Shown in pieces: positions 52,435 through 63,420 of a stretch of DNA of 64,000 nucleotides. A program made the position numbers and the translations under genes. Origin of the DNA: Nitrospirota bacterium (GTDB taxonomy: Bacteria; Nitrospirota; UBA9217); NCBI GenBank assembly GCA_963751455.1, contig CAVVUN010000002.1, positions 64,001 to 128,000 of the forward strand. The letters are read 5' to 3'. Below the pieces are notes generated by a model. The model worked only from the letters and a program-made list of their open reading frames with translations, had not been told where the DNA came from and searched no databases. How positions within the stretch are numbered: the first letter of the stretch is position 1; each line of letters starts with the position of its first letter.

Positions 52435-52602
52435 ATGAACTGCAAGATCTGCGGCAAACAAATAGAACTCAGGGCGGGTTGACGCGTCGTCACGTTGCGC
52501 TGCACGGGATGCAGCAAGGAATACCAGATCGCCGAGTACCTCAATGAAATAGATGCACACACTTGGGAGATTATTTCGCGACGAGCCTGCAACAGAGTGT
52601 AA
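52435..52602 (+). CDS. Small dual-CxxC selenoprotein, 55 aa (absent from ORF track)
   Basis: RBS ggagg; MNCKICGKQIELRAG-U-RVVTLRCTGCSKEY..RACNRV; TGA at 52480-52482; SECIS-like hairpin. Confidence 0.8.
52495..52517 (+). promoter_or_regulatory. Bacterial SECIS-like hairpin
   Basis: GCTGCA-[CGGGA]-TGCAGC; loop starts 22 nt after the TGA. Confidence 0.7.
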
Positions 52603-52704
52603 TTGTCCGCGCTTTTTCCTTTTTCAATGAAGCAGTCCACAACCAATTAGTAAAACTCCTTTTTTATCAATAGATTTAGACGATGCTCAAATTAGAATTT
52701 TACG

Positions 52705-52741
52705 TTGACATTTCCATAATAATATAATAATGTTTGCATAT
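52705..52741 (+). promoter_or_regulatory. Sigma70 promoter overlapped by a putative ArsR operator
   Basis: TTGACA-17nt-TAATGT; ATATAA-N8-GCATAT (52722-52741) covers the -10 and recurs inverted at 56969-56988. Confidence 0.65.
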
Positions 52742-52786
52742 AATAAGCAGCTAAAAACTTCTCCTGAAAGGAATGGACAGTTAGGA

Positions 52787-53038
52787 ATGAAACTTCACGA
52801 CCCGATAAACATCATGCTTGACTGCTGCATCCCGGACAAAAAGAGACTAATGCTCGAGTTGAGCAAATTATCTCCTGGTGAAACGCTCAAAATCGAGGTA
52901 GATAACTGCGTCATGTCCAAGGCAATGGTAGAGGATTTCGTAAAAAACAAATGGTACAGCATTGTTCAGACCGTTGAGCGGGATGATTTCACCGTTTTGC
53001 ACATACAAGCCAAGACTATAGACACGAGCACAGTTTGA
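52787..53038 (+). CDS. TusA/SirA-like sulfur carrier (atypical CCIP motif)
   Basis: 83 aa; DCCIP..L.KL.PGETLKIEVD..; TusA-like spacing and C-terminal strand. Confidence 0.7.
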   Translation: MKLHDPINIMLDCCIPDKKRLMLELSKLSPGETLKIEVDNCVMSKAMVEDFVKNKWYSIVQTVERDDFTVLHIQAKTIDTSTV

Positions 53039-53063
53039 AATCCGGGCAATTCAAGGGGCGACC

Positions 53064-53405
53064 ATGATTCCCATAGAAAAAAGAATCGAACTGTTGAAGA
53101 TAATAGCACACCCTGTGCGGGTAAAAATTCTCGAAGACCTGACGAAGAGCGTGAAGTGCGTAAGCGATTTCGAGGAGTCGCTCGACATCAGCCAGCCGAA
53201 TGTGTCCCAGCACCTTTCACTGCTTCGCTCTCACGGCGTCATAGATTTTTATATTGACGGAAGGCTGAAGTGCTATTTCCTCAGGGAGCCGCTCATTCCC
53301 GATCTGCTCGAACTATTGAAGAAAGAATATGAAGAAGATGTTCCGGCGCCGGCATGCTGCCCGGTGACAAAAAAGGGAACTTATCCAGGCGAAAGGAGAC
53401 ATTAA
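53064..53405 (+). CDS. ArsR/SmtB regulator with Cys-rich tail (TsoR-like)
   Basis: AHPVRVKIL, KCVSD, SQPNVSQHL..LR; tail PACCPVTK. Confidence 0.9.
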   Translation: MIPIEKRIELLKIIAHPVRVKILEDLTKSVKCVSDFEESLDISQPNVSQHLSLLRSHGVIDFYIDGRLKCYFLREPLIPDLLELLKKEYEEDVPAPACCPVTKKGTYPGERRH

Positions 53406-53410
53406 GAAGG

Positions 53411-53695
53411 ATGAAGAAACACATGATCACACTCTATGTTAACGACCCTATGGGGAAACGCTGATTATCCAATACGGAAGCCGCCGGTCGGGCGGAAACG
53501 GAATTCGGCGCACAAATCGTAGTGATCAAGAAGACATCGAATGAGTACAGCCAAGAGAAAGACCCGCCTCCGTGCCCGTCAGTAATGGTGAACGGCAGGT
53601 TCATCGCCAGGAACGACACTATCAAGTATCAGGCGCTCAAGACGGCGCTCCTGAGCGACAGCGACATAGAGGAGACGGCGTCATTATCGCCGTAA
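53411..53695 (+). CDS. Thioredoxin-like selenoprotein with NDPMGKRU (NEPxGxxU-type) motif, 94 aa (absent from ORF track)
   Basis: TGA 53462-53464 after YVNDPMGKR; frame continues to PPCPSVMVNG and TAA 53693-53695; fills the gap between ArsR and DsrE. Confidence 0.82.
53481..53495 (+). promoter_or_regulatory. Bacterial SECIS-like hairpin
   Basis: CCGCC-[GGTCG]-GGCGG; loop starts 21 nt after the TGA. Confidence 0.72.
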
Positions 53696-53776
53696 CCGGT
53701 CTAAAGATGTGGTCCCAAATCGTAAGTCAGTAGCATGTATTAATTGCAGTTAAGGAAGTCACGAAAGGAGGCTGAA

Positions 53777-54133
53777 ATGTCGAAAACCGTTACTCTGTAT
53801 TTATCAACATCGCCGTATTCCTACGAGAACACCTTAACAAGTGCCCGCATTGCTGAATCGGCCTTGAACAAGGGCCATACCGTCAATCTCATTGCGTCGG
53901 CTGACGGTATCTATTGTTTCCTGACAAAACAGAAGGCGAAGGGCATACTGAATGCCGAGGAGGAATTTTCCCGGCTTATTCAAAAGGGGCTGAAGGTGTA
54001 CCTTTGAGGCGGGTGTCTCAACTTTCGCCGTGCGGCGAAAGACGATTACCTTGCAGGTTCTGAGGTCGGCTCCCTCAAGGGTTTGTTTGCAACCATGGGC
54101 GAGAGCGACGTCTGGATCAACGTCGGAGCATGA
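53777..54133 (+). CDS. dsrE: DsrE/TusD-family selenoprotein (U77-G-G-C80), 118 aa
   Basis: RBS aggagg; SPYS, ADGIY; VYL-U-GGCLNFR with TGA 54005-54007. Read-through gives the DsrE C-terminus GSLKGL..ESD.WINVG. Confidence 0.88.
54022..54041 (+). promoter_or_regulatory. Bacterial SECIS-like hairpin
   Basis: Perfect 8-bp stem CTTTCGCC-[GTGC]-GGCGAAAG; loop starts 22 nt after the TGA. Confidence 0.78.
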
Positions 54134-54175
54134 TTCAAAATGCGGATTGCGGAATTAAAACACAAGGAGGATGAG

Positions 54176-54529
54176 ATGGCTGCCATAGCAATGATTCTGA
54201 AGCGGTCGCCTTATGGCGACATCAACGCGGCCGAGGCCGTGCGGCACGCTCTCGGAGCCGTGTCAGGCGAATTGAGCGTGGACCTGATCCTGATGGACGG
54301 CGGAGTACTGCTTGCGAAGAAAGGACAGGACGACACCGGAACCGGCTTCACCAATCTCGAAGGCGCTCTCAAGGACTGCATCGACATGGGTGTAAGTGTG
54401 TATGCGGATGACTACTCCTTGAAGACCCAACGCGTAGGGCTGAGCGATGTGGTAGAGGGCGTAAAACCAGTCAGCGCCAAAAATATTGCGCAACTGGTGA
54501 ATGAGGCAAAATCGACGATGATATTTTGA
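54176..54529 (+). CDS. dsrF: DsrF/TusC-like protein
   Basis: RSPYG..AEA.R, DGGVLL..KGQ, SL..R; directly follows dsrE. Confidence 0.8.
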   Translation: MAAIAMILKRSPYGDINAAEAVRHALGAVSGELSVDLILMDGGVLLAKKGQDDTGTGFTNLEGALKDCIDMGVSVYADDYSLKTQRVGLSDVVEGVKPVSAKNIAQLVNEAKSTMIF

Positions 54530-54541
54530 GAGGAGGCTGCT

Positions 54542-54823
54542 ATGCTCGTGATGATTAAAAGTGCACCCGACACGACGGATGGGGCGCTCGGCTTGACCCT
54601 TGCGAAGGAAGGCAGTGCTGATCTTGTCCTGCTGCAGAACGGAGTCTACTTTGCGCAAAAGGAACGACTCGGCGCTTTTTCCGGTGCGGTGTACGTCCTG
54701 GGTGACGACAAGAGGCTCCGAGGTCTCAAGGATTCAGAAATGGATGATCGCGCGAAGACCATTGACTACGACAAGCTGACGGACATTATTACCGGAGGAG
54801 AAAAGGTTGTGGGAATGTTTTAA
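54542..54823 (+). CDS. dsrH: DsrH/TusB-like protein
   Basis: LLQNGVY, VL.DD..LRGL and IDYD motifs. Confidence 0.85.
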   Translation: MLVMIKSAPDTTDGALGLTLAKEGSADLVLLQNGVYFAQKERLGAFSGAVYVLGDDKRLRGLKDSEMDDRAKTIDYDKLTDIITGGEKVVGMF

Positions 54824-54900
54824 AACAGTTAAGGCTAAGGTTAAGTTAAAAAACTCAACCTCAGTCTCGGCCTAAAACCGTTACACAAGGGGAGGATACT

Positions 54901-56091
54901 ATGGCAAGGATCGTTGTTTTAGGGGGATCGTTCGGGGGATTGACAGCGGCCTTTGAGCTGAAGCGGCTGCTCGGGAAGAAAGCGGATGTAACCGTAGTGA
55001 GCGACGATGACCGGTTCGTGTTCCTGCCGTCGCTGCCGTGGCTTATTATGGGGTGGAGAAGGCCGAAGGACATCACGCTCAAGGTCGGCGATATTTTGAA
55101 ACCGAAGGGGATCGCTTTCGTCCATGAAGCCGCGAAGCAGGTTGACGCCGACGCATCGAAGGTAATCACTTCTCAAGGCAAGGAGCTGCCTTACGATTTT
55201 CTCGTCATATCGACAGGTCCGCATCTCTCCTTCGATGAAATTCCGGGACTGGGCCCGGACAAAGGGCATACGGACTGTACCTTTACACTCGACCATGCGG
55301 TAAAGACGGGTGAAACATGGAAAAAAATTCTTGAGAACCCTGGTCCGATCGTCGTCGGATCATCGCAGATGGTGAGCTGCTTCGGCCCATCCTATGAACT
55401 TGCCTTTGAAATGGATGCCGAGCTTCGGCGTCGCAAGATGCGCCACAAGGTCCCCATCATCTATCTCACGTCGGAGCCTTACCTCGGCCATATGGGCGTC
55501 GGCGGTCTCGGCAAATCAAAAACGTTCATGGAAAACGAGTTTGCCGAACGTGATATCAAGCCGTTTATTAACCAGGCAATTCAGGAAGTGGCGCCCGGAG
55601 AGATACGGCTCAAGGACGGAAACAAAATTCCCTTCAAGCTCGCGATGATTGCCCCGCCGTTCAAGGGCGTGCCCGCCGTCATGCCGCTCGGAAATCCGCG
55701 CGGGTTCATCCCGGTTGATAAAAACTACCGTCACATGAAACACAAGAATATTTTTGCCATAGGCGTTGCAATGGCCATTGCACCGCCGGAAGCTACTCCG
55801 GTGCCGACCGGCGTGCCGAAGACCGGATTCATGACCGTAAAGATGGCAAAGATCGCTGCGGCGACTGTCGCCTCGGATATTACCGGCAAGCCAGCGCCTT
55901 TGGCTGATGAACTCGGCGTGGTCTGTCTCATGGACATGGGAAACACAGCCGCGTTCATGAAAGCGTATCCAGTACTGCCTCCCCGGCAGAGTTCGTATAT
56001 GAAAAAGACGATCTGGGCAAAATGGATGAAGGTCAGGTTCGAGAAATATTTCCTGTGGAAAATGAAGAGGGGGCTTACGAATCTGCCATGA
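54901..56091 (+). CDS. sqr: Sulfide:quinone oxidoreductase
   Basis: GGSFGG FAD fold, SCFGPSYE, VPKTGFM, VCLMDMG and FEKYFLWK. Confidence 0.88.
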   Translation: MARIVVLGGSFGGLTAAFELKRLLGKKADVTVVSDDDRFVFLPSLPWLIMGWRRPKDITLKVGDILKPKGIAFVHEAAKQVDADASKVITSQGKELPYDFLVISTGPHLSFDEIPGLGPDKGHTDCTFTLDHAVKTGETWKKILENPGPIVVGSSQMVSCFGPSYELAFEMDAELRRRKMRHKVPIIYLTSEPYLGHMGVGGLGKSKTFMENEFAERDIKPFINQAIQEVAPGEIRLKDGNKIPFKLAMIAPPFKGVPAVMPLGNPRGFIPVDKNYRHMKHKNIFAIGVAMAIAPPEATPVPTGVPKTGFMTVKMAKIAAATVASDITGKPAPLADELGVVCLMDMGNTAAFMKAYPVLPPRQSSYMKKTIWAKWMKVRFEKYFLWKMKRGLTNLP

Positions 56092-56492
56092 AAAAAGAGC
56101 TATTGAAGCTGCATGCTGATTTTTGCAAGATATTTTCAAATGCCATGCGGCTTGAAATACTCTGCCTGCTAAAGACAGGAGAGCTGACAGTCGGCGAGAT
56201 CACCGGGAAGCTTGAAATTTCAAAGGCGAATACGTCCCAGCATCTGGCCCTCATGCGCATGACGCGTATTCTGACAACGAGAAGAAAAGGCAATAATGTT
56301 TATTATGGAATCGCCAATAAAAAAATCTGCCGGGCATGCAGCCTGATGCAGGAAGGCCTGGAACAGCTTTATGGAGATGATACGACCCCACCCCGCAACT
56401 CCCCCCTTGCCAAGGGGGGATTAAGGGAGGTGTTAAAGGAGGGACAATATGACGAAGATAGTAAAAAATGTATCGATCATGTGCTTCCATGA
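56088..56492 (+). CDS. Second ArsR/SmtB regulator
   Basis: ADFCKIFSN..RLEIL, ANTSQHLA.MR, VYY; C-terminus extended by a palindromic insert. Confidence 0.85.
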   Translation: MKKELLKLHADFCKIFSNAMRLEILCLLKTGELTVGEITGKLEISKANTSQHLALMRMTRILTTRRKGNNVYYGIANKKICRACSLMQEGLEQLYGDDTTPPRNSPLAKGGLREVLKEGQYDEDSKKCIDHVLP

Positions 56493-56871
56493 CGAGCTCT
56501 GCCAGGTTTACAATGCGCTCATGACTGCATTGAGCATCCTCAGGGAAGGCTCAAAAGTCACGATGTTTTTCGGATCTCGCGGAATCAACGCGGTCCACAA
56601 GGATAAGGTGAAGGACCTCAAGTGTCTGCCGGACCAGCCCAAGGAAGAAGGCGATGCAGTGATGAAAAAAATGGAGGAAATGGAACTGCCGACAGTCGAG
56701 GACCTCTTCTTCATGCTAATCGCAGAAGGGGGGGCGGTCCTCGCCTGCCCGCTGAACGTCTCCCTGTTCAATATTACTGCGGGGCAGTTGATCGACGGCG
56801 TCAAGGTGGCGGATCCTGCGAAGTACTATAAAGAAATCATGATTCCTGCGGATATGAACCTGACTTTTTAG
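56449..56871 (+). CDS. DsrE2/DsrE3-like sulfur-binding protein
   Basis: RBS ggagg; VTMFFGSRG and VLACPLN motifs. Confidence 0.78.
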   Translation: MTKIVKNVSIMCFHDELCQVYNALMTALSILREGSKVTMFFGSRGINAVHKDKVKDLKCLPDQPKEEGDAVMKKMEEMELPTVEDLFFMLIAEGGAVLACPLNVSLFNITAGQLIDGVKVADPAKYYKEIMIPADMNLTF

Positions 56872-56876
56872 ATGGG

Positions 56877-56946
56877 CTCTTGCAAAAGTCCACGCGACCC
56901 GGACCTTACTCTTCTGCGGTATGATAAAAAGTGACTTTTGCAAGAG
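56877..56946. mobile_element. 70-bp element with 14-bp perfect terminal IR (IS scar or MITE)
   Basis: CTCTTGCAAAAGTC / GACTTTTGCAAGAG. Confidence 0.6.
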
Positions 56947-56968
56947 ACGCAATATTTTTTTCACCGAT

Positions 56969-56988
56969 ACATGCAAGTATTATTATAT
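56969..56988 (+). promoter_or_regulatory. Putative ArsR operator upstream of the MMPL gene
   Basis: ACATGCAAGTATTATTATAT matches the reverse complement of 52722-52741 at 17 of 20 positions. Confidence 0.6.
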
Positions 56989-57011
56989 TTCTATGTATAG
57001 AGGGGGAGTAC

Positions 57012-60000
57012 ATGCGTAAATTTTCTTTAGTCGAATTTTCAGTCGACCATCCCAAGCTCATTGTCGTCCTGTCGATCATTCTTACCGTCGTCTTCATGAC
57101 CCAGTTCCCAAAAGTGAGGACGGACACGAACCCCAAGAACATGCTGCCGCCTACGTCTGCCGTCCGGGTCGGGAACGATGAAATCGAAAAGACCTTCGGC
57201 CTGTATGAGGACATGATCGTCCTCGGAATCCAGAACGAAAAGGGCATCCTGAATACGGACACCCTCGGCAAAATTCAGCGGATCACCGATGAGACCCTGA
57301 AGATCAAAGGCGTTGCGGCCCGGGACGTATCGAGCTTCACGACCATTGATAACGTCACAGTTGAGGGTGAGACGTTAATGGTGAGCCCGCTCATGACCGC
57401 GGTGCCGAAGACGGATAAAGAGCTGTCCGTCATGAGGAAGGCCCTCTTCGAGAATCCGCTCTTCATCGACCGCATCATATCGAAAGACGGCAAAACCACG
57501 GCTATCTATGTCCCTCTCGAAAAGGGCTCAAACGGAAAAGAGGTCGCGGACAAAATTCGGGAGCTCGTCAGGAAAGAGAAGGGCGACGAAAAATACTATG
57601 TTGCCGGCGATCCCGTGGCAAGGGACACCTTCGGAGCGGACATGTTCAAGCTCATGGCCGTATTCGCGCCCATAGCCGGGATGGTCATGCTGATCGTTAG
57701 ATTTCTCATGTTCAAGGACCTGTTCCTCTCAATCACGCTGATGATGGACGCCATGATCAGCATCGTATGGAGCATGGGACTCCTGATCGCTCTCGGATTT
57801 CCCATCCACATCATGAGCTCCATGGCCCCCGTGTTCCTGATGGCAATCGCAACGGACAGCATGCACATTTTTAACGAGTTCTACTTCCGGTTCCGTGAGA
57901 AGAAAGACAAGCGGGCTGCGATCATCGCCACCATGCAGGCGGTCAGCCGTCCGGTCCGGAATACCGCCCTTGCAACCGCAGCTGGTTTCGCCGTGCTATT
58001 GTTCATGAACATCATCCCGGTCAAGGTTTTCGGCGGACTTGTCGCGTTCGGGACGATAGCCCTTCGTGTCCTGAGCTTCAGCTTCATTCCCGCGATGTTC
58101 ATGTTCGTGAAGGAGGAAAAGATCGAGAAAATAGCGCGATCAGAGGACGCTGAAGCAGGCGGTTCGGTCTTCCTGAAGAAACTGGCCGGGCTCGGTATCC
58201 GCAAACCCCTGACAACCGTTCTTGTCGGGATCGTGCTGATCGTAGCCGCCATCATCGGCATTTCAAAAACGATCGTAAACAACAATATGGTGGAGTGGTT
58301 CAAAAAGGGCAGCGAAGTGCGAGTCGCCGACACGGTCATGAACAAGGCCCTGGGCGGGACATCTCTGGGCTATATCGTGGCTATCTCCGACAAGGACGAC
58401 TACATTAAAACGCCGGAAGCCATGCGATTTATCGAAGGACTTCAACGCCGCCTGGAGAAACTGCCGGTTGTCGGAAAGACTACTTCGGTTGTTGACTATG
58501 TCAAGAGGATCAACCGAGTGCTCCATAACGACAACCCCAAATTCGACGCAGTCCCCGGGACAAAGGAGATGATCGGCCAGTATCTGTTCCTTTTCTCCAT
58601 GTCGGCGAAGCCGTCCGATCTCGACAACGTCGCTGACTATCCCTTCCGCAAAGCCAATATCTGGGTGCAGCTAAAGACCTGGGATGCAAAGGCCATGGAA
58701 TCGGTAATCGCAGAAGTCAATGCATTCAAAAAGGAGAACCCGACCCCGATGGAATTCAAGCCTGCCGGGATTGCCTACTTCAACCTGGTCTGGAACCATG
58801 AAGTTCTTTGGGACATGGTAAAAGGCCTTGTTTTGGCACTCATTGTCGTATTTGCTATCCTTGCATACGATTTCCGGTCCATCAAATGGGCTGTTATCGG
58901 GTATATCCCGCTCCTGTTCACGATCCTGCTCATTTATGGGGTCATCGGTTATATCGGCAAGGATTTTGACATGCCCATCTCGGTCATGAGCTGCCTCTCC
59001 CTCGGCATGGCCGTGGATTTTGCCATCCACTTTGTGAGCAGGTTCAGGCAGCGACTGAAAGAAATTCAGGGAACGGGCGACGCGAAACAACATATAACAG
59101 ATGCCTTACTCTGGACTGCAGCTCGTCCGGGGAAGGGTATCATGCGGAACGCCATCCTGTTCGCCGCGGCTTTCGCGGTAATGCTCTTTGCTCCGCTGAC
59201 GCCGTATGTCACGGTAGGCGCCTTCATCGTGAGCATGATGATGCTGAGCGCTCTTATGACGATACTCTATTTGCCCGCCCTCATAACATTGCTGCGGGGC
59301 TGGCTCTTCCAGGGAGGTACTGACGTGAAACGTGTTGCTGCAACAGCAATTGTTCTGGCATTTGCGATATTTACATCGGCAGCGGCTGCCGCGGACAGCG
59401 GAACGGATATCATGAAAAAATCCCAGGCTGCTTTTCTTTATTCAGGCAAGGACTTCAAGGCCCGCATTCAGATGAAGCTGATCACTCAGAGCGGGCAGGA
59501 GCGGCTTCGGGAGCTGACGATGCTCAGAAAGAATTTCGGCGAGCCGGGCGGCGAGCAGAAGTACTTCATGTATTTCTTTCTGCCGGCGGATGTCAAGGAC
59601 ATGACCTTCATGGTCCACAAGCACCCCGGCAGGGACGCGGACCGCTGGCTGTTCGTGCCGGCGATCAGCATGGTCAGGCGGATCGCGGCCAGGGACAAGA
59701 GCTCAAGCTTCGTAGGCTCAGATTTTTCCTATGAAGACGTTTCAGGGAGAAATATTGACGACGATACGCACGTCCTGGTGAAGGAAGAAAAGCTCGACAC
59801 CAAAGATTGTTATGTGGTCAAGAGCACGCCCAAAGCTGCAGATGTGGATTACTCGTACAAAATGTCCTGGATCGACAAAGGCACTCATCTGCCGCTCAAG
59901 GAAGAGTACTATGACAGAAAGGGCGATCTTTACAAAGTCTTTACAGCGAATGAGATCAAAACGATAAAGGGATTTCCTACTATTACGAAGCGTACTATGA

Positions 60001-60125
60001 AGAATGCTTTGAGCGGACACCGCACGGATGTTACTTTCCTTAAGGCTGATTATGACCTGGGGATCGACGACAATCTTTTCTCTGAACGTTTTCTGAAACA
60101 GCCTCCCAAGAGGTGGATTGAATGA
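57012..60125 (+). CDS. MMPL/RND-family exporter running in frame into a LolA-like lipoprotein-sorting domain
   Basis: Two MMPL halves (AIATDSMH, LGMAVDFAIH), then a signal-like segment and LolA-like domain (SFVGSDFSYED). Internal GGAGG plus GTG at 59313-59327. Confidence 0.85.
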   Translation: MRKFSLVEFSVDHPKLIVVLSIILTVVFMTQFPKVRTDTNPKNMLPPTSAVRVGNDEIEKTFGLYEDMIVLGIQNEKGILNTDTLGKIQRITDETLKIKGVAARDVSSFTTIDNVTVEGETLMVSPLMTAVPKTDKELSVMRKALFENPLFIDRIISKDGKTTAIYVPLEKGSNGKEVADKIRELVRKEKGDEKYYVAGDPVARDTFGADMFKLMAVFAPIAGMVMLIVRFLMFKDLFLSITLMMDAMISIVWSMGLLIALGFPIHIMSSMAPVFLMAIATDSMHIFNEFYFRFREKKDKRAAIIATMQAVSRPVRNTALATAAGFAVLLFMNIIPVKVFGGLVAFGTIALRVLSFSFIPAMFMFVKEEKIEKIARSEDAEAGGSVFLKKLAGLGIRKPLTTVLVGIVLIVAAIIGISKTIVNNNMVEWFKKGSEVRVADTVMNKALGGTSLGYIVAISDKDDYIKTPEAMRFIEGLQRRLEKLPVVGKTTSVVDYVKRINRVLHNDNPKFDAVPGTKEMIGQYLFLFSMSAKPSDLDNVADYPFRKANIWVQLKTWDAKAMESVIAEVNAFKKENPTPMEFKPAGIAYFNLVWNHEVLWDMVKGLVLALIVVFAILAYDFRSIKWAVIGYIPLLFTILLIYGVIGYIGKDFDMPISVMSCLSLGMAVDFAIHFVSRFRQRLKEIQGTGDAKQHITDALLWTAARPGKGIMRNAILFAAAFAVMLFAPLTPYVTVGAFIVSMMMLSALMTILYLPALITLLRGWLFQGGTDVKRVAATAIVLAFAIFTSAAAAADSGTDIMKKSQAAFLYSGKDFKARIQMKLITQSGQERLRELTMLRKNFGEPGGEQKYFMYFFLPADVKDMTFMVHKHPGRDADRWLFVPAISMVRRIAARDKSSSFVGSDFSYEDVSGRNIDDDTHVLVKEEKLDTKDCYVVKSTPKAADVDYSYKMSWIDKGTHLPLKEEYYDRKGDLYKVFTANEIKTIKGFPTITKRTMKNALSGHRTDVTFLKADYDLGIDDNLFSERFLKQPPKRWIE

Positions 60126-61414
60126 GGAAGTTCAAGACAGTAGGGCACAGATGTCAGATGACAGACTGGATCGGACTGTTTGTTTTTAGTCTGTGCTCTC
60201 TCTTCTGCGTCCTGATTTCTTCATCAGTGTTTGCAGCCGATTTTTCTTTTCACGGTTTCGCGCAGGGCAATTATTCGAGGGATACGGGTGCGGACAATCC
60301 TGACGGCAAGGAATTGAAATGGTCCGAGGAGCGGGTCCAGCTTAAGTTCGAAGCCTCGCAGGACCCGTTCCGGCTGTTTATCAAAGAAGACGTTTTTTAC
60401 GATCATCTCGATAGGGAAGCCCATGCCGAACTGCGCGAGGGTTATGCCGACTATGCCGCCGGGACGTGGGATGCTCGCGCCGGAAGGCAGATTATCACTT
60501 GGGGCCTTGGGGACCTCTTGTTCATCAACGATGTTTTTCCCAAGGACTACGAGGCGTTTTTTTCCGGCAGGCCGCTTGAATACCTCAAGAAGGGCGTTGA
60601 CGCAGTCAAAATCGGGGCCTATCCTGGCTTTGTATCTGCGGAATTTGTCCTGATTCCGATTTTCGAGCCCAACACGTTTCCTGATCCCAACCGCTTCTCA
60701 ATGTTCGATCCCTTGTCAGGCGTTACGAACAGGGCAGAGCAAAAACCGGCTTCGACCGCCGAAAACAGCGAAGTTGCGCTGCGGCTCTATCGCGACGTGA
60801 TGGGGCTCGACGGTTCCCTCTATTTCTATAAAGGATATTTCCGGCAGCCTTCAGTCCTGCCCGATAACCCAATGGCTCCGACAAAGCTCACGTTCTTTTA
60901 CCCGAAACTGAACGTCTATGGCGCAAGCCTGCAGGGAAGGGCCGTGGATGGCGTGGTGAGCCTGGAAGCCGGGTATTATGATTCAAGAGAGGACCAGTCC
61001 GGCAATAATCCCATGATCCCGAATTCCCAGACGCGGTATCTCCTGGGCTATCAAAGGCAGTTCTGGGAGGATTTCACGCTGGGCCTCCAGTACTACGGCG
61101 AGTACATGCAGGATTACGGAGAATACGGACAGAGCCTGCCTGCCGGGTTCCCTATGGACAAGCGCCTGCATCAGCTCGCAACGATCAGACTCATGCAATT
61201 TTTGAGGCACCAGACGTTGAGGCTTTCCTTCTTCGCGTTTTACGGGATTTCCGACAGGGATTACCTGATCAATCCCGAAATAAAATATAACTTCACGGAC
61301 TCTATCTGGTTTGCTCTCGGAGGCAATTTCTTCGGCGGGGAAAAACCCTGGACGCAGTTTGGACAACTGGCGAATAATGACAATGTCTATACTCAGGTAA
61401 GATATGAGTTCTAA
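60122..61414 (+). CDS. Outer-membrane beta-barrel protein (DUF1302-like)
   Basis: Signal peptide; LREGY.D, GRQIITWG.GD, FGQ..NDN.Y..RYEF with terminal Phe. Confidence 0.8.
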   Translation: MRKFKTVGHRCQMTDWIGLFVFSLCSLFCVLISSSVFAADFSFHGFAQGNYSRDTGADNPDGKELKWSEERVQLKFEASQDPFRLFIKEDVFYDHLDREAHAELREGYADYAAGTWDARAGRQIITWGLGDLLFINDVFPKDYEAFFSGRPLEYLKKGVDAVKIGAYPGFVSAEFVLIPIFEPNTFPDPNRFSMFDPLSGVTNRAEQKPASTAENSEVALRLYRDVMGLDGSLYFYKGYFRQPSVLPDNPMAPTKLTFFYPKLNVYGASLQGRAVDGVVSLEAGYYDSREDQSGNNPMIPNSQTRYLLGYQRQFWEDFTLGLQYYGEYMQDYGEYGQSLPAGFPMDKRLHQLATIRLMQFLRHQTLRLSFFAFYGISDRDYLINPEIKYNFTDSIWFALGGNFFGGEKPWTQFGQLANNDNVYTQVRYEF

Positions 61415-61456
61415 AAGTTCAGGATATTTCTCGGTACGGCTTATTTGGGAGCATTC

Positions 61457-62857
61457 ATGTCAGTAAAACTTACGATCATCGGCGCGGGGCCTGGCGGTTA
61501 TGTCGCCGCGATCCGCGCTGCGCAGAAAGGCGCGCACGTTACCGTTGTTGAAGACACGGAAGTGGGCGGAACCTGCCTGAACAGGGGATGCATCCCGACC
61601 AAGACGCTCATCGCCTCTGCTGAGGCGCTCAATCTGGTACGCCGGGCCGCTGACTACGGCGTCGATCTTCCAGGCGAAGCCGGATACAACCTCGCCAGGA
61701 TCCGGGAGCGAAAGGACAAGGTTGTCTCCCTGCAGGTGAAGGGCATTCGCGGGCTGTTCAAAAGCTGGGGAGTGACGGTCATCGAAGGCCGCGGCTCGCT
61801 CCTGTCTTCCGATACGGTAAGGGTCACCGGGAAAGACGGCGCGTCCGTGGACGTCAAGTCCGATAAGATAATCATTGCCACTGGTTCGAGCCCCGTAAAA
61901 TTTGCCGGTTTTCCTTTTGACGGAGAGAGCGTCATCACGAGCGACGAGGCAATCCAGCTCAAAAAAATCCCGAAGAGCCTGCTCATCGTCGGCGCAGGAG
62001 TCATCGGGTCCGAGTTCGCGTTCATCTACCGAAGCTTCGGAGCTGTGGTGTCGATCGTCGAAATGATGCCGCGCGCGCTTTCGACGGAAGACGAAGACAT
62101 GGCGGACATTATCGAGCGGGAATTCAAGAAGTCAGGAATCAAGCTTCAGACCAACGTGAAGATCGAGAACGTCGAGAAAGACCCGGAGGGCATGATCGTC
62201 GCAAAACTCTCGAACGGCCGCGAAATCCGTGCGGAGATGGTTCTTGTATCCATCGGCCGCGGCATGAACTCCGGGAACCTCGGTCTTGATGCCGTCGGAG
62301 TCGCGACGGGGAAGCGCGGGGAGATCATCGTGAATGACAGGATGGAAACTACGGCTCCGGGCGTCTACGCCGTCGGAGACGTTACCGGCAAGATCCTGCT
62401 TGCCCATGTCGCTTCGCAACAGGGACTTGTCGCCGTTGAGAACGCTCTCGGCAATGCAGAAACAATGGACTACACGGTTGTCCCGTCCGGCGTCTTCACC
62501 ATGCCCGAAATCGGCAGCGTCGGCTTACGGGAGCATGAGGCCCGAGAGAAAGGGATCAAGTACCATGTCGGCCGGTTCCCTTACCGTGCGCTCGGCAAGG
62601 CCCACGCCATGGGGGAGATCACCGGCATGGTTAAGGTGCTGTCCGATGCTGAATCGGACAAAGTCCTCGGGGTCCATATCTGCGGCGCTCACGCAACGGA
62701 CATGATCCATGAAGGCGCGCTTGCCATTCAAACGGGAACGACCGCTAAAAAGCTGGGGCAAATGATCCACGCCCATCCCACCCTTGCCGAGGCAGTCATG
62801 GAGGCGGCAGAGGACACGCATGGGTGCGCGATTCATATACCGAAGACGGCCAAGTGA
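61457..62857 (+). CDS. lpdA: Dihydrolipoamide dehydrogenase
   Basis: GAGPGG, GGTCLNRGCIPTK, LLAH and HAHPTLAE. Confidence 0.95.
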   Translation: MSVKLTIIGAGPGGYVAAIRAAQKGAHVTVVEDTEVGGTCLNRGCIPTKTLIASAEALNLVRRAADYGVDLPGEAGYNLARIRERKDKVVSLQVKGIRGLFKSWGVTVIEGRGSLLSSDTVRVTGKDGASVDVKSDKIIIATGSSPVKFAGFPFDGESVITSDEAIQLKKIPKSLLIVGAGVIGSEFAFIYRSFGAVVSIVEMMPRALSTEDEDMADIIEREFKKSGIKLQTNVKIENVEKDPEGMIVAKLSNGREIRAEMVLVSIGRGMNSGNLGLDAVGVATGKRGEIIVNDRMETTAPGVYAVGDVTGKILLAHVASQQGLVAVENALGNAETMDYTVVPSGVFTMPEIGSVGLREHEAREKGIKYHVGRFPYRALGKAHAMGEITGMVKVLSDAESDKVLGVHICGAHATDMIHEGALAIQTGTTAKKLGQMIHAHPTLAEAVMEAAEDTHGCAIHIPKTAK

Positions 62858-62928: not shown

Positions 62929-63420
62929 TCAAGCCCTGTAAGCATACAGCATACCGGTTAATAAGAGCACTGTAATGCCCATAAAAAAGTTGATTTTCAC
63001 CAGATTCAGGGATACTGTTTGCAGCTTCTGAACTTTTTCAGGATGGCCTCCTTCCGACGACAACCGTGCTATCCCTGGTGTCAGGACCAACCCTCGGTAA
63101 AAATGAATGCACGTCATTATTACTACGAACAGAATCTTTGCAACAAGCGATCTCACCCGCAGGGCGGAAAGTCCGGGGAAACCGGTAAAATCATGCGAAG
63201 CGACACTCATGAAGATTCCGCTTGCGATGATCAGAAAAATGCTGATATTTGCCAGCGGAACAAAGCGTTTGCTCAGAGGTCCCATGATTTTACCTGGTTG
63301 GTCAAGGGTCTTCCCCGCAACCGGGATGGCAACATACAAAATAAAAAAAATTCCGCCTATCCAGACAACTGCCGATAACAGATGCACCCACATAGTTACC
63401 GTCAACAATAATCGGTCCAT
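62929..63420 (-). CDS. CopD/DUF4149-like membrane protein
   Basis: HLLSAVVWIGG..F; 4 TM segments; RBS aggagg. Confidence 0.8.
   Translation of the reverse strand: MDRLLLTVTMWVHLLSAVVWIGGIFFILYVAIPVAGKTLDQPGKIMGPLSKRFVPLANISIFLIIASGIFMSVASHDFTGFPGLSALRVRSLVAKILFVVIMTCIHFYRGLVLTPGIARLSSEGGHPEKVQKLQTVSLNLVKINFFMGITVLLLTGMLYAYRA

What the first reader, a model, noticed from the sequence alone, without database searches (positions are those of the whole stretch)
52435..62857. Selenoprotein-rich sulfur-relay cluster coupling Sec-DsrEFH and SQR to an MMPL/LolA/outer-membrane export module
Seen: same-strand run of a dual-CxxC Sec protein, TusA-like, ArsR, Sec thioredoxin-like, Sec-DsrE, DsrF, DsrH, SQR, second ArsR, DsrE2-like, MMPL-LolA-like, OM barrel and LpdA. 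Three in-frame TGAs each have a SECIS-like hairpin, and no dsrAB/dsrC or mnmA is in the window. Known: SQR oxidises sulfide to sulfane sulfur, TusA and DsrE proteins carry persulfides, and Cys-containing ArsRs (SqrR/BigR type) sense persulfide. Inference: a persulfide-inducible system that oxidises sulfide (or selenide), relays it on selenyl-sulfide carriers and exports a hydrophobic sulfur or selenium species. Individual families are known; I do not recognise this combination as a described pathway. Standard gene callers would truncate or miss three of its genes.
Basis: partly seen in the sequence, partly recalled or inferred. Interest (0 to 1): 0.92.

Follow-up and report, generated by a model that had tools for sequence, protein, structure and literature searches.

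The report
Selenium sulfur-carrier operon with co-regulated exporter
A Nitrospirota bacterium carries a conserved gene cluster joining a likely sulfide-oxidising enzyme to a probable three-protein sulfur carrier that very likely uses selenocysteine. The same DNA motif, likely a repressor's binding site, sits in front of this cluster and of a neighbouring pump for greasy molecules, making the pump a testable candidate for moving elemental sulfur across the cell envelope.

Summary
The genes and all three in-frame TGAs are real. The genome has selA, selB, tRNA-Sec and a selD with a frame break 2 kb past the window.

The conserved unit is smaller than claimed: ArsR1-(TsoC-like, Sec)-DsrE(Sec)FH-SQR, often with a DsrE2-like gene and an MMPL/LolA-like/DUF1302 transporter. 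LpdA and the TusA-like ORF are local additions, and the dual-CxxC gene lies upstream of the predicted promoter. dsrAB, dsrC and mnmA are elsewhere in the genome, as are two other DsrEFH-like trios. ArsR1 lacks BigR's alpha-2 sensing cysteine.

A 30-base palindrome learned only from relatives' arsR1 promoters has its two best sites in 5.7 Mb at this operon's promoter and directly before MMPL. It recurs before MMPL in 10 of 35 relatives and 6 of 11 held-out loci, and before SQR in 0 of 86.

Best reading: an inducible sulfide/sulfane-sulfur regulon that likely oxidises sulfide, relays sulfur on Sec77 and moves hydrophobic sulfur through the envelope. Cargo, direction and inducer are untested. This scan found the operon before in other genomes; I did not find it in the papers searched.

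The parts
52435..52602 (+). Dual-CxxC small selenoprotein (55 aa, U16); a frequent neighbour but upstream of the predicted operon promoter
   Evidence: NF041197 58 bits > 40. Present in 31 of 36 same-family genomes, but within the loci of only 10 of 55 DsrE genes. Operator upstream in 0 of 10.
52705..52743 (+). Predicted sigma-70 promoter (TTGACA at 52705) overlapped by the predicted ArsR1 operator palindrome (52712-52743)
   Evidence: Conserved upstream of arsR1 orthologues. Best site in the 5.7-Mb genome, score 42.7, with a matrix trained without this genome.
52790..53038 (+). Degenerate TusA-like ORF (about 82 aa; CC instead of CPxP); local insertion
   Evidence: PF01206 19.1 bits < 28.6. 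Found in 1 of 55 related loci.
53064..53405 (+). ArsR1, ArsR/SmtB repressor with invariant C32, C70, C98, C99; likely the operon's autorepressor
   Evidence: NF033788 66.6 bits > 55. Four Cys in 53 of 53 orthologues. Upstream of DsrE in 47 of 50 loci.
53411..53695 (+). TsoC-like small selenoprotein (94 aa, NDPxGxRU18 and C55); accessory
   Evidence: NF045708 42.3 bits, just under 45. TGA in 31 of 33. Present in 27 of 55 loci. The two Cys forms are in genomes where no selA was found.
53777..54133 (+). DsrE-family subunit with Sec77 (UxxC) at the sulfur-carrying position; SECIS-like hairpin at about 54022-54041
   Evidence: PF02635. A natural Cys homologue aligns this position to Cys78 of A. vinosum DsrE (2hy5_A) and to TusD. 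Hairpin tests.
54176..54529 (+). DsrF/TusC-like subunit
   Evidence: TIGR03010 30.7 bits, below cut-off. Present in 51 of 55 loci.
54542..54823 (+). DsrH/TusB-like subunit
   Evidence: PF04077. Present in 49 of 55 loci.
54901..56091 (+). Sulfide:quinone oxidoreductase homologue, type-I-like (C126, C160, C342); the only close SQR in the genome
   Evidence: Best PDB match Aquifex SQR 3hyv, E 5.5e-98. Single copy. Follows DsrEFH in 44 of 46 loci.
56088..56492 (+). ArsR2, second ArsR; accessory
   Evidence: NF033788 74.5 bits. Present in 16 of 55 loci. Its alpha-2 Cys26 is kept in only 6 of 16 homologues.
56449..56871 (+). DsrE2-like protein with four conserved Cys (C12, C18, C59, C100); travels with the transporter
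   Evidence: PF13686 50.1 bits. Cys conservation. Present in 16 of 55 loci.
56967..56998 (.). Second copy of the predicted ArsR1 operator, directly before the MMPL gene
   Evidence: Second-best locus in the genome, score 38.6. 0 of 1000 column-shuffled matrices reach it, maximum 16.6.
57012..60125 (+). MMPL/HAE3-type RND transporter read in frame into a LolA-like periplasmic protein (separate genes in most relatives)
   Evidence: PF03176 and PF17131 209 bits. TIGR00921 177 bits, below cut-off. The in-frame join also occurs in L080 and L082.
60122..61414 (+). DUF1302-like outer-membrane beta-barrel
   Evidence: An 89%-identical homologue falls in DUF1302 clusters, score 0.99. A low-confidence model (pLDDT 51) matches porin barrels.
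61457..62857 (+). Dihydrolipoyl dehydrogenase; adjacent but probably not part of the system
   Evidence: TIGR01350 528 bits. No relative has it in this position; the only LpdA-like hit in 55 loci is 31% identical and upstream. GC 0.59 versus 0.51.

Best explanation
This is a conserved Nitrospirota operon, likely repressed by ArsR1, that is predicted to handle sulfide and sulfane sulfur: SQR would oxidise sulfide to polysulfide or S8, a DsrEFH-like complex would carry the sulfur on a likely selenocysteine, and a likely co-regulated MMPL/LolA-like/DUF1302 transporter would move hydrophobic sulfur out across the envelope. Shown: gene content, gene-order conservation, TGA/Cys interchange at the DsrE active-site position, Sec machinery, and a shared palindrome over the promoter and before MMPL. 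Inferred: ArsR1 binds that palindrome and lets go when its four cysteines react with polysulfide. Inferred: electrons pass through quinone to the genome's heme-copper oxidases. Inferred: Sec77 forms a selenenyl-sulfide that hands sulfur to DsrC or TusA encoded elsewhere. Inferred: surplus zero-valent sulfur is the transporter's cargo. The genome already has two cysteine-type DsrEFH-like trios, so this third one is probably the inducible, high-sulfide branch rather than the housekeeping feed.
For: SQR follows DsrEFH in 44 of 46 loci and ArsR1 precedes it in 47 of 50; SQR is in 14 of 15 held-out loci. The SQR homologue keeps Cys at or beside the three Aquifex positions. Sec aligns to DsrE Cys78 through a Cys homologue. 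All 28 relatives with this DsrE have a dsrB match, and 0 of 15 without dsrB have it (kin are not independent). MMPL lies in 17 of 40 and 9 of 15 informative loci. The operator precedes MMPL in 10 of 35 and 6 of 11 loci, against 0 of 52 and 0 of 34 for SQR and 0 of 58 for DsrF. In G119 the MMPL module keeps the operator 55 kb away from arsR1, and none of the 8 MMPL loci from families without an ArsR1 match scores 20. Genes inserted inside the transporter module are sulfur-handling: YeeE in L087, L105, L130, L131 and L140, rhodanese in L087 and L105 (L105's YeeE was judged by likeness, not scanned). An HAE3 pump with OM and periplasmic partners exports monoterpenes (PMC6394551, abstract). An sqr is highly transcribed in a sulfide-fed Nitrospirota MAG (PMC8906906, passages; not shown to be this operon).
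Against: No expression or biochemical data were obtained. MMPL is missing from 23 of 40 informative loci, and 11 of 26 MMPL-positive genomes had no match to the DsrE profile. 25 of 35 MMPL upstream regions lack the operator. ArsR1 lacks BigR's alpha-2 Cys; its alpha-3 Cys and C-terminal CC recall As(III) sensors (from memory). The SQR has Val at the position of Aquifex Glu318 in 41 of 45 homologues, so its quinone chemistry may differ. DUF1302/DUF1329/RND clusters are otherwise tied to organic hydrophobes or cell-wall export. The genome's only selD match over the cut-off has a frame break; other genes such as dsrA are split too, so it may be an assembly error, but this was not verified.
Confidence: 0.5

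Rival explanations
1. The ArsR1-DsrEFH-SQR core is a sulfide-stress system, but the transporter moves an organic or envelope cargo (a lipid, quinone or alkyl polysulfide) and is only co-induced.
For: The characterised or proposed cargoes of DUF1302/LolA-like/RND modules are monoterpenes, fatty esters or cell-wall components. The module is optional and occurs without DsrEFH in 11 of 26 genomes. A fatty-acid hydroxylase/desaturase gene sits next to it in L127.
Against: YeeE, rhodanese and DsrE2-like genes are repeatedly inserted in or beside the module. It has a dedicated operator at a near-fixed 44-46 bases from the start.
Confidence: 0.2
2. The transporter runs inward and delivers extracellular S8 to the Sec-DsrEFH relay for disproportionation, reduction or reverse-Dsr oxidation.
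For: The host has dsrAB, dsrC and dsrMKJOP-like genes and a YTD-like trio. YeeE, proposed as a sulfane-sulfur importer (PMC13293266), is inserted in the module in several relatives.
Against: The HAE3 precedent is export. SQR makes zero-valent sulfur, so co-regulation fits removal more simply.
Confidence: 0.12
3. The cluster handles selenium: it oxidises or traffics selenide and exports Se0, or feeds SelD.
For: selD lies in 9 of 55 loci, in several directly behind arsR1, and 2 kb past this window. A YedF-like gene neighbours it in L117. The cluster encodes up to three selenoproteins.
Against: Co-expressing selD is equally explained by the need to make Sec-DsrE on induction. selD is absent from 46 of 55 loci. 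Cys versions of DsrE exist next to an SQR-like gene.
Confidence: 0.1
4. ArsR1 senses a thiophilic metal(loid) such as As(III) or thioarsenate, and the operon detoxifies it through sulfur chemistry and efflux.
For: ArsR1 has invariant alpha-3 and C-terminal CC cysteines; the resemblance to arsenic sensors is recalled, not tested. An arsenite-methyltransferase-like gene lies in 6 loci.
Against: I recognised no recurrent arsenite pump or arsenate reductase among the neighbour clusters, apart from a possible ArsB/CitM-like transporter in 4 loci that was not scanned. The recognition helix has Q at i and i+5, as in SqrR and BigR.
Confidence: 0.08

Closest known systems
DsrEFH type I (Allochromatium vinosum, PDB 2HY5) / TusBCD (E. 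coli, 2D1P)
   Same: Three adjacent genes in E-F-H order; the active-site position aligns to Cys78.
   Different: Sec instead of Cys; all three subunits score below the TIGR03010/3011/3012 cut-offs; located beside SQR rather than in a dsr or mnmA cluster.
DsrEFH type II / YTD cluster (Plum-Jensen et al. 2026, PMC13293266)
   Same: Occurs in dsrAB-carrying Nitrospirota; the same SQR-to-DsrEFH-to-DsrC logic is proposed there.
   Different: That type has Cys67 and neighbours yeeE/tusA. This genome has such a trio separately on C15. The paper's main text never mentions selenium.
Persulfide-sensing SqrR/BigR (and cst-type) sulfide-stress operons
   Same: A Cys-rich repressor heads an operon with SQR, sulfur carriers and often TauE (15 of 55 loci).
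   Different: ArsR1 lacks the alpha-2 Cys; the carrier is Sec-DsrEFH; no persulfide dioxygenase was recognised; a three-part envelope transporter is attached.
AmeABCD of Castellaniella and DUF1302/DUF1329/RND modules
   Same: HAE3-type RND plus a LolA/DUF1329-like periplasmic protein plus a DUF1302 barrel.
   Different: No BNR-repeat subunit was seen; embedded among sulfur genes under a shared predicted operator.
tso selenoprotein loci (NCBIfam TsoA/B/C/X/R)
   Same: A TsoC-like small selenoprotein next to an ArsR.
   Different: TsoC score is just under cut-off, TsoR far under, and no TsoA or TsoX was found in this genome.

Membership tests
Bacterial selenoprotein (DsrE-like, UxxC) | In-frame TGA aligning to Cys in homologues | tested here: met
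Bacterial selenoprotein (DsrE-like, UxxC) | SECIS-type hairpin with a loop G just after the TGA | tested here: met
   45 of 50 versus 8% of recodings; lost in both Cys forms
Bacterial selenoprotein (DsrE-like, UxxC) | selA, selB, selC and selD in the genome | tested here: inconclusive
   All four found, but selD has a frame break in this assembly
Bacterial selenoprotein (DsrE-like, UxxC) | Selenium incorporation shown | not testable with these tools
   Needs 75Se labelling or mass spectrometry
DsrEFH type I / TusBCD | Scores above the TIGR03012/03010/03011 cut-offs | tested here: not met
   No hit, 30.7 < 94 and 38.8 < 49; the Cys homologue scores 35.5 < 89
DsrEFH type I / TusBCD | Sulfur-carrying residue at the Cys78 position | tested here: met
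   Through a natural Cys homologue
DsrEFH type I / TusBCD | Located in an oxidative dsr or mnmA gene cluster | tested here: not met
   dsrAB about 210 kb away on C2; mnmA on C8
DsrEFH type II (YTD) | Above 80 bits with the published type II HMMs | not testable with these tools
   The HMMs are not among the supplement files listed
DsrEFH type II (YTD) | Synteny with yeeE and tusA | tested here: not met
   No canonical tusA or yeeE in the window cluster; a separate YTD-like trio lies on C15
DsrEFH (any type) | Heterotrimer formation and sulfur transfer | not tested
   No complex prediction was obtained
Type I SQR | Closest to Aquifex/Acidithiobacillus SQR, with three catalytic Cys | tested here: met
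   E 5.5e-98; C160 and C342 aligned, C126 shifted by two residues
Type I SQR | Glu318-equivalent near the quinone site (role recalled) | tested here: not met
   Val in 41 of 45
SqrR/BigR persulfide sensor | Cys pair in helices alpha-2 and alpha-5 | tested here: not met
   ArsR1 has Glu at BigR's alpha-2 Cys; NF040642 46.5 < 155; ArsR2 keeps C26 in only 6 of 16
TusA sulfurtransferase | CPxP motif and PF01206 above cut-off | tested here: not met
tso locus | TsoA and TsoX beside TsoC, with TsoR | tested here: not met
   None found in G000; TsoB not searched; the defining paper is not held
HAE3/MMPL tripartite transporter (AmeABCD-like) | MMPL/HAE3 pump, LolA-like protein and DUF1302 barrel in one run | tested here: met
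   TIGR00921 itself is below cut-off
HAE3/MMPL tripartite transporter (AmeABCD-like) | Demonstrated export of a hydrophobic substrate | not testable with these tools
   Needs a transport assay

The most novel reading that the evidence does not exclude
This is a dedicated envelope-spanning export route for SQR-made elemental sulfur, wired by one operator to a third, selenocysteine-dependent class of DsrEFH and sensed by a new four-cysteine ArsR class. It would let 'sulfate-reducing' Nitrospirota oxidise sulfide, and it has stayed hidden because gene callers cut dsrE at its catalytic codon.
Probability: 0.25. Interest if true: 0.88.

Novelty: new variant of a known kind. Interest (0 to 1): 0.62.

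Why it matters
How zero-valent sulfur crosses the Gram-negative envelope, and whether bacteria with sulfate-reducer gene sets oxidise sulfide, are open questions (my knowledge; the second is framed in PMC13293266). This cluster supplies a named pump, an operator and a repressor to test. It also exposes an annotation blind spot: all 120 listed database homologues of this DsrE are truncated at the Sec codon, so censuses that need a full DsrE would likely miss it. That may contribute to the published remark that most Thermodesulfovibrionia have dsrFH but no dsrE (PMC11033732), although the divergent dsr-linked trio could explain that equally well.

Tried and rejected
Expression: no RNA holder was listed. 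The one small-share run gave six short contigs, none bridging genes, and is not used as evidence. Supplementary Table 2 of PMC8906906, which might show transcripts of this operon, was too large to read.

Structure: a single-sequence fold of the OM protein failed (pLDDT 31). The alignment-based model is only pLDDT 51, so its porin matches are weak support. No complex prediction was obtained, so trimer formation is open. No Atlas result was obtained for DsrE or ArsR1.

Operator: the first matrix was mis-registered (6 sites) and was replaced. The third genomic site (C6:187302, score 25.3) lies inside an ORF and is within what shuffled matrices reach, so it was rejected. The simple promoter and terminator scans were not informative.

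Other negatives: the plasmid search with DsrE2-like found nothing. The SelD_N query was in the wrong frame, so selD counts use the C-terminal query only. The idea that the MMPL-LolA join is an assembly artefact was rejected, because L080 and L082 share it. Distance correlations (SQR-MMPL 0.57) are not used as co-evolution evidence because kin share history.

Literature searches with no paper holding the combination: 0 papers each; 1 listed, on Hyphomicrobium. 'MMPL', 'RND' and 'DUF1302' had 0 occurrences in PMC13490349 and PMC13047784. Haft and Tolstoy 2025 is not held and could describe part of this neighbourhood.

Full report
Observation. Three ORFs cross an in-frame TGA: a dual-CxxC protein (U16, NF041197 above cut-off), a small protein nearest NCBIfam TsoC (U18, 42.3 versus 45 bits) and a DsrE-family protein (U77). 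Across distinct contexts, window included, the codon is TGA in 12 of 12, 31 of 33 and 50 of 52, and otherwise TGC or TGT. In 80 metagenome loci it is TGA in 3 of 3, 18 of 18 and 80 of 80 (these were selected as the best matches). A G-loop hairpin about 16-33 bases after the codon is far above synonymous-recoding background for DsrE (45 of 50 versus 8%, lost in both Cys forms), moderately so for TsoC-like, and barely so for dual-CxxC.

Sec machinery and annotation. The genome has selA, selB and two tRNA-Sec genes. selD lies 2 kb beyond the window's end, itself with a TGA and with a frame break; dsrA is split likewise, which suggests assembly errors but was not verified. All 120 listed database homologues of DsrE, of 409 found, end at the TGA, confirming the annotation blind spot.

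Host. Named relatives are Nitrospirota in 36 of 37 record titles. The genome carries dsrAB, dsrC, dsrMKJOP-like genes, mnmA and several heme-copper oxidases, one above the CtaD cut-off. The DsrAB type was not treed. It also has two other DsrEFH-like trios with Cys: one beside the dsr genes (C2:332-333 kb, 25-32% identical to the window's subunits) and a YTD-like one beside tusA, rhodanese and yeeE (C15:356-357 kb). Among 60 relatives, all 28 with this DsrE have a dsrB match and none of the 15 without dsrB has it; this is confounded by kinship.

What is conserved. In 55 non-redundant DsrE loci (14 duplicates dropped), SQR follows in 44 of 46 and ArsR1 precedes in 47 of 50 loci with enough flank. 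MMPL is present in 17 of 40 loci with at least 4.5 kb downstream; broken fragments in L070 and L086 were not counted. Accessory genes: TsoC-like 27, DsrE2-like 16, ArsR2 16, TauE 15, dual-CxxC 10, selD 9, TusA-like 1 and LpdA-like 1 of 55. Fifteen held-out metagenome loci give SQR 14 and MMPL 9. In a phylum sample of 120 genomes, 26 have this MMPL: 13 carry it on the same contig as the DsrE (in G018 only its 5' end), two more are linked across a contig break, and 11 have no DsrE match. So the core is ArsR1-DsrE(Sec)FH-SQR and the transporter is a frequent but separable module. LpdA and the TusA-like ORF are local. Two divergent Sec-DsrE types (about 40% identical) fill the same slot.

The parts. 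The SQR homologue is closest to Aquifex SQR (E 5.5e-98) with Cys126, Cys160 and Cys342, but Val replaces Glu318 in 41 of 45 homologues (the roles of these residues are recalled). The Sec position aligns, through a natural Cys homologue, to Cys78 of A. vinosum DsrE and to TusD. ArsR1 has no Cys at BigR's alpha-2 site but has C32, C70, C98 and C99 in 53 of 53 orthologues; its inducer is unknown. The transporter is MMPL/HAE3-like plus LolA-like plus a DUF1302 barrel. YeeE and rhodanese genes are inserted inside the module in several relatives.

Regulatory link. Upstream regions of arsR1 orthologues share TTGACA followed by a palindrome over the -10 region. A 30-column matrix was built from 49 sites in 59 regions, this genome excluded. 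Its two best loci in the 5.7-Mb genome are the operon promoter (52712-52743, score 42.7) and the gap directly before MMPL (56967-56998, score 38.6). Column-shuffled matrices reach at most 16.6 on that MMPL region (1000 shuffles) and at most 30.7 genome-wide (12 shuffles). The site scores 20 or more before MMPL in 10 of 35 relatives, against 0 of 52 SQR, 0 of 31 LolA, 0 of 25 OMP, 0 of 10 dual-CxxC, 1 of 32 TsoC-like and 3 of 61 DsrE regions. Held-out loci give ArsR1 28 of 37, MMPL 6 of 11, SQR 0 of 34, DsrF 0 of 58, DsrE 3 of 62 and dual-CxxC 1 of 3. G119 keeps the site on an MMPL module 55 kb from arsR1, while MMPL loci from families without ArsR1 lack it. That ArsR1 binds the site is inferred from ArsR autoregulation. 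The promoter position places the dual-CxxC gene outside the operon.

Mechanism. Most likely (0.5): sulfide-derived persulfide modifies ArsR1 and derepresses both blocks. SQR would oxidise sulfide to polysulfide or S8. Sec-DsrEFH would take up sulfane sulfur and pass it to DsrC or TusA in trans, by analogy with the in vitro cascade in PMC13293266 (parts 1-4 of 7 read). The pump would clear hydrophobic sulfur, by analogy with AmeABCD (abstract). Rivals are another cargo (0.2), S8 import (0.12), selenium handling (0.1) and a metal(loid) response (0.08).

Comparison and novelty. DsrE-like UxxC selenoproteins, dual-CxxC and TsoC are catalogued families (PMC13188914 and PMC1088965, passages). The trio fails the type I cut-offs and the type II synteny test, and the type II paper has no mention of selenium in its main text; the five hits in its supplement name other proteins. 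It is not a tso locus by TsoA/TsoX content, but the defining paper could not be read. Searches for the combination returned nothing relevant; the library omits most subscription journals. Earlier AI notes of this scan report the same operon in other genomes. They are not independent support; one pointed me to the 'dsrFH but no dsrE' remark (PMC11033732, passages). Other papers seen as passages only: 10.1101/2020.07.04.188060, 10.1101/072470, PMC8906906, 10.1101/2022.07.06.499078 and 10.64898/2026.05.15.721447.

Verdict. This is a real, widespread new variant of the repressor-SQR-sulfur-carrier operon kind, with a hidden Sec-DsrEFH and a probably co-regulated envelope transporter. Interest 0.62.

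Noticed in passing
G000:C2:127855-131900 (window 63855 onward and just beyond; L030, L115): The island continues past the window: a third ArsR with a C-terminal CxCxC, a second TsoC-like gene with in-frame TGA (44.5 bits), a SAM methyltransferase, Sec-containing selD with a frame break, and TauE. None carries the operator.
   Followed up: partly
window 62929-63420 (-): CopD/DUF4149-like membrane protein; recurs with ArsR3 next to the cluster in L049, L061 and L118.
   Followed up: no
L066, L069, L139, L140: A divergent Sec-DsrE/DsrF pair (about 40-48% identical, UTGC motif) replaces the usual one while SQR and MMPL stay 74-89% identical, which suggests module swapping with Sec retained.
   Followed up: partly
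L098/L039 (G001:C36:321-764): A TsoA-like TGA-containing gene (85 bits, below cut-off) lies about 1.7 kb upstream of arsR1-tsoC-like, the only link seen to the tso loci.
   Followed up: no
G000:C13:3947-4733: A second tRNA-Sec next to a YedF-like (TusA+DsrE) gene on a 9-kb contig; may be contamination (5.4% reported).
   Followed up: no
G000:C6 (L146:934-4311): A 1126-aa ORF fusing a molybdopterin oxidoreductase to a NifS-like cysteine desulfurase.
   Followed up: no
L079, L084, L085, L088 (between TauE and DsrE) and L050: A multiheme c554-like cytochrome gene is inserted upstream of dsrE in five loci.
   Followed up: no
L099, L104, L138, L197: selD sits directly behind arsR1, with an extra operator copy in front of dsrE.
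   Followed up: partly
G000:C2:332283-333502: A dsrH-dsrE-dsrF-like trio with Cys lies between dsrC and the dsrMKJOP-like genes, in H-E-F order.
   Followed up: partly
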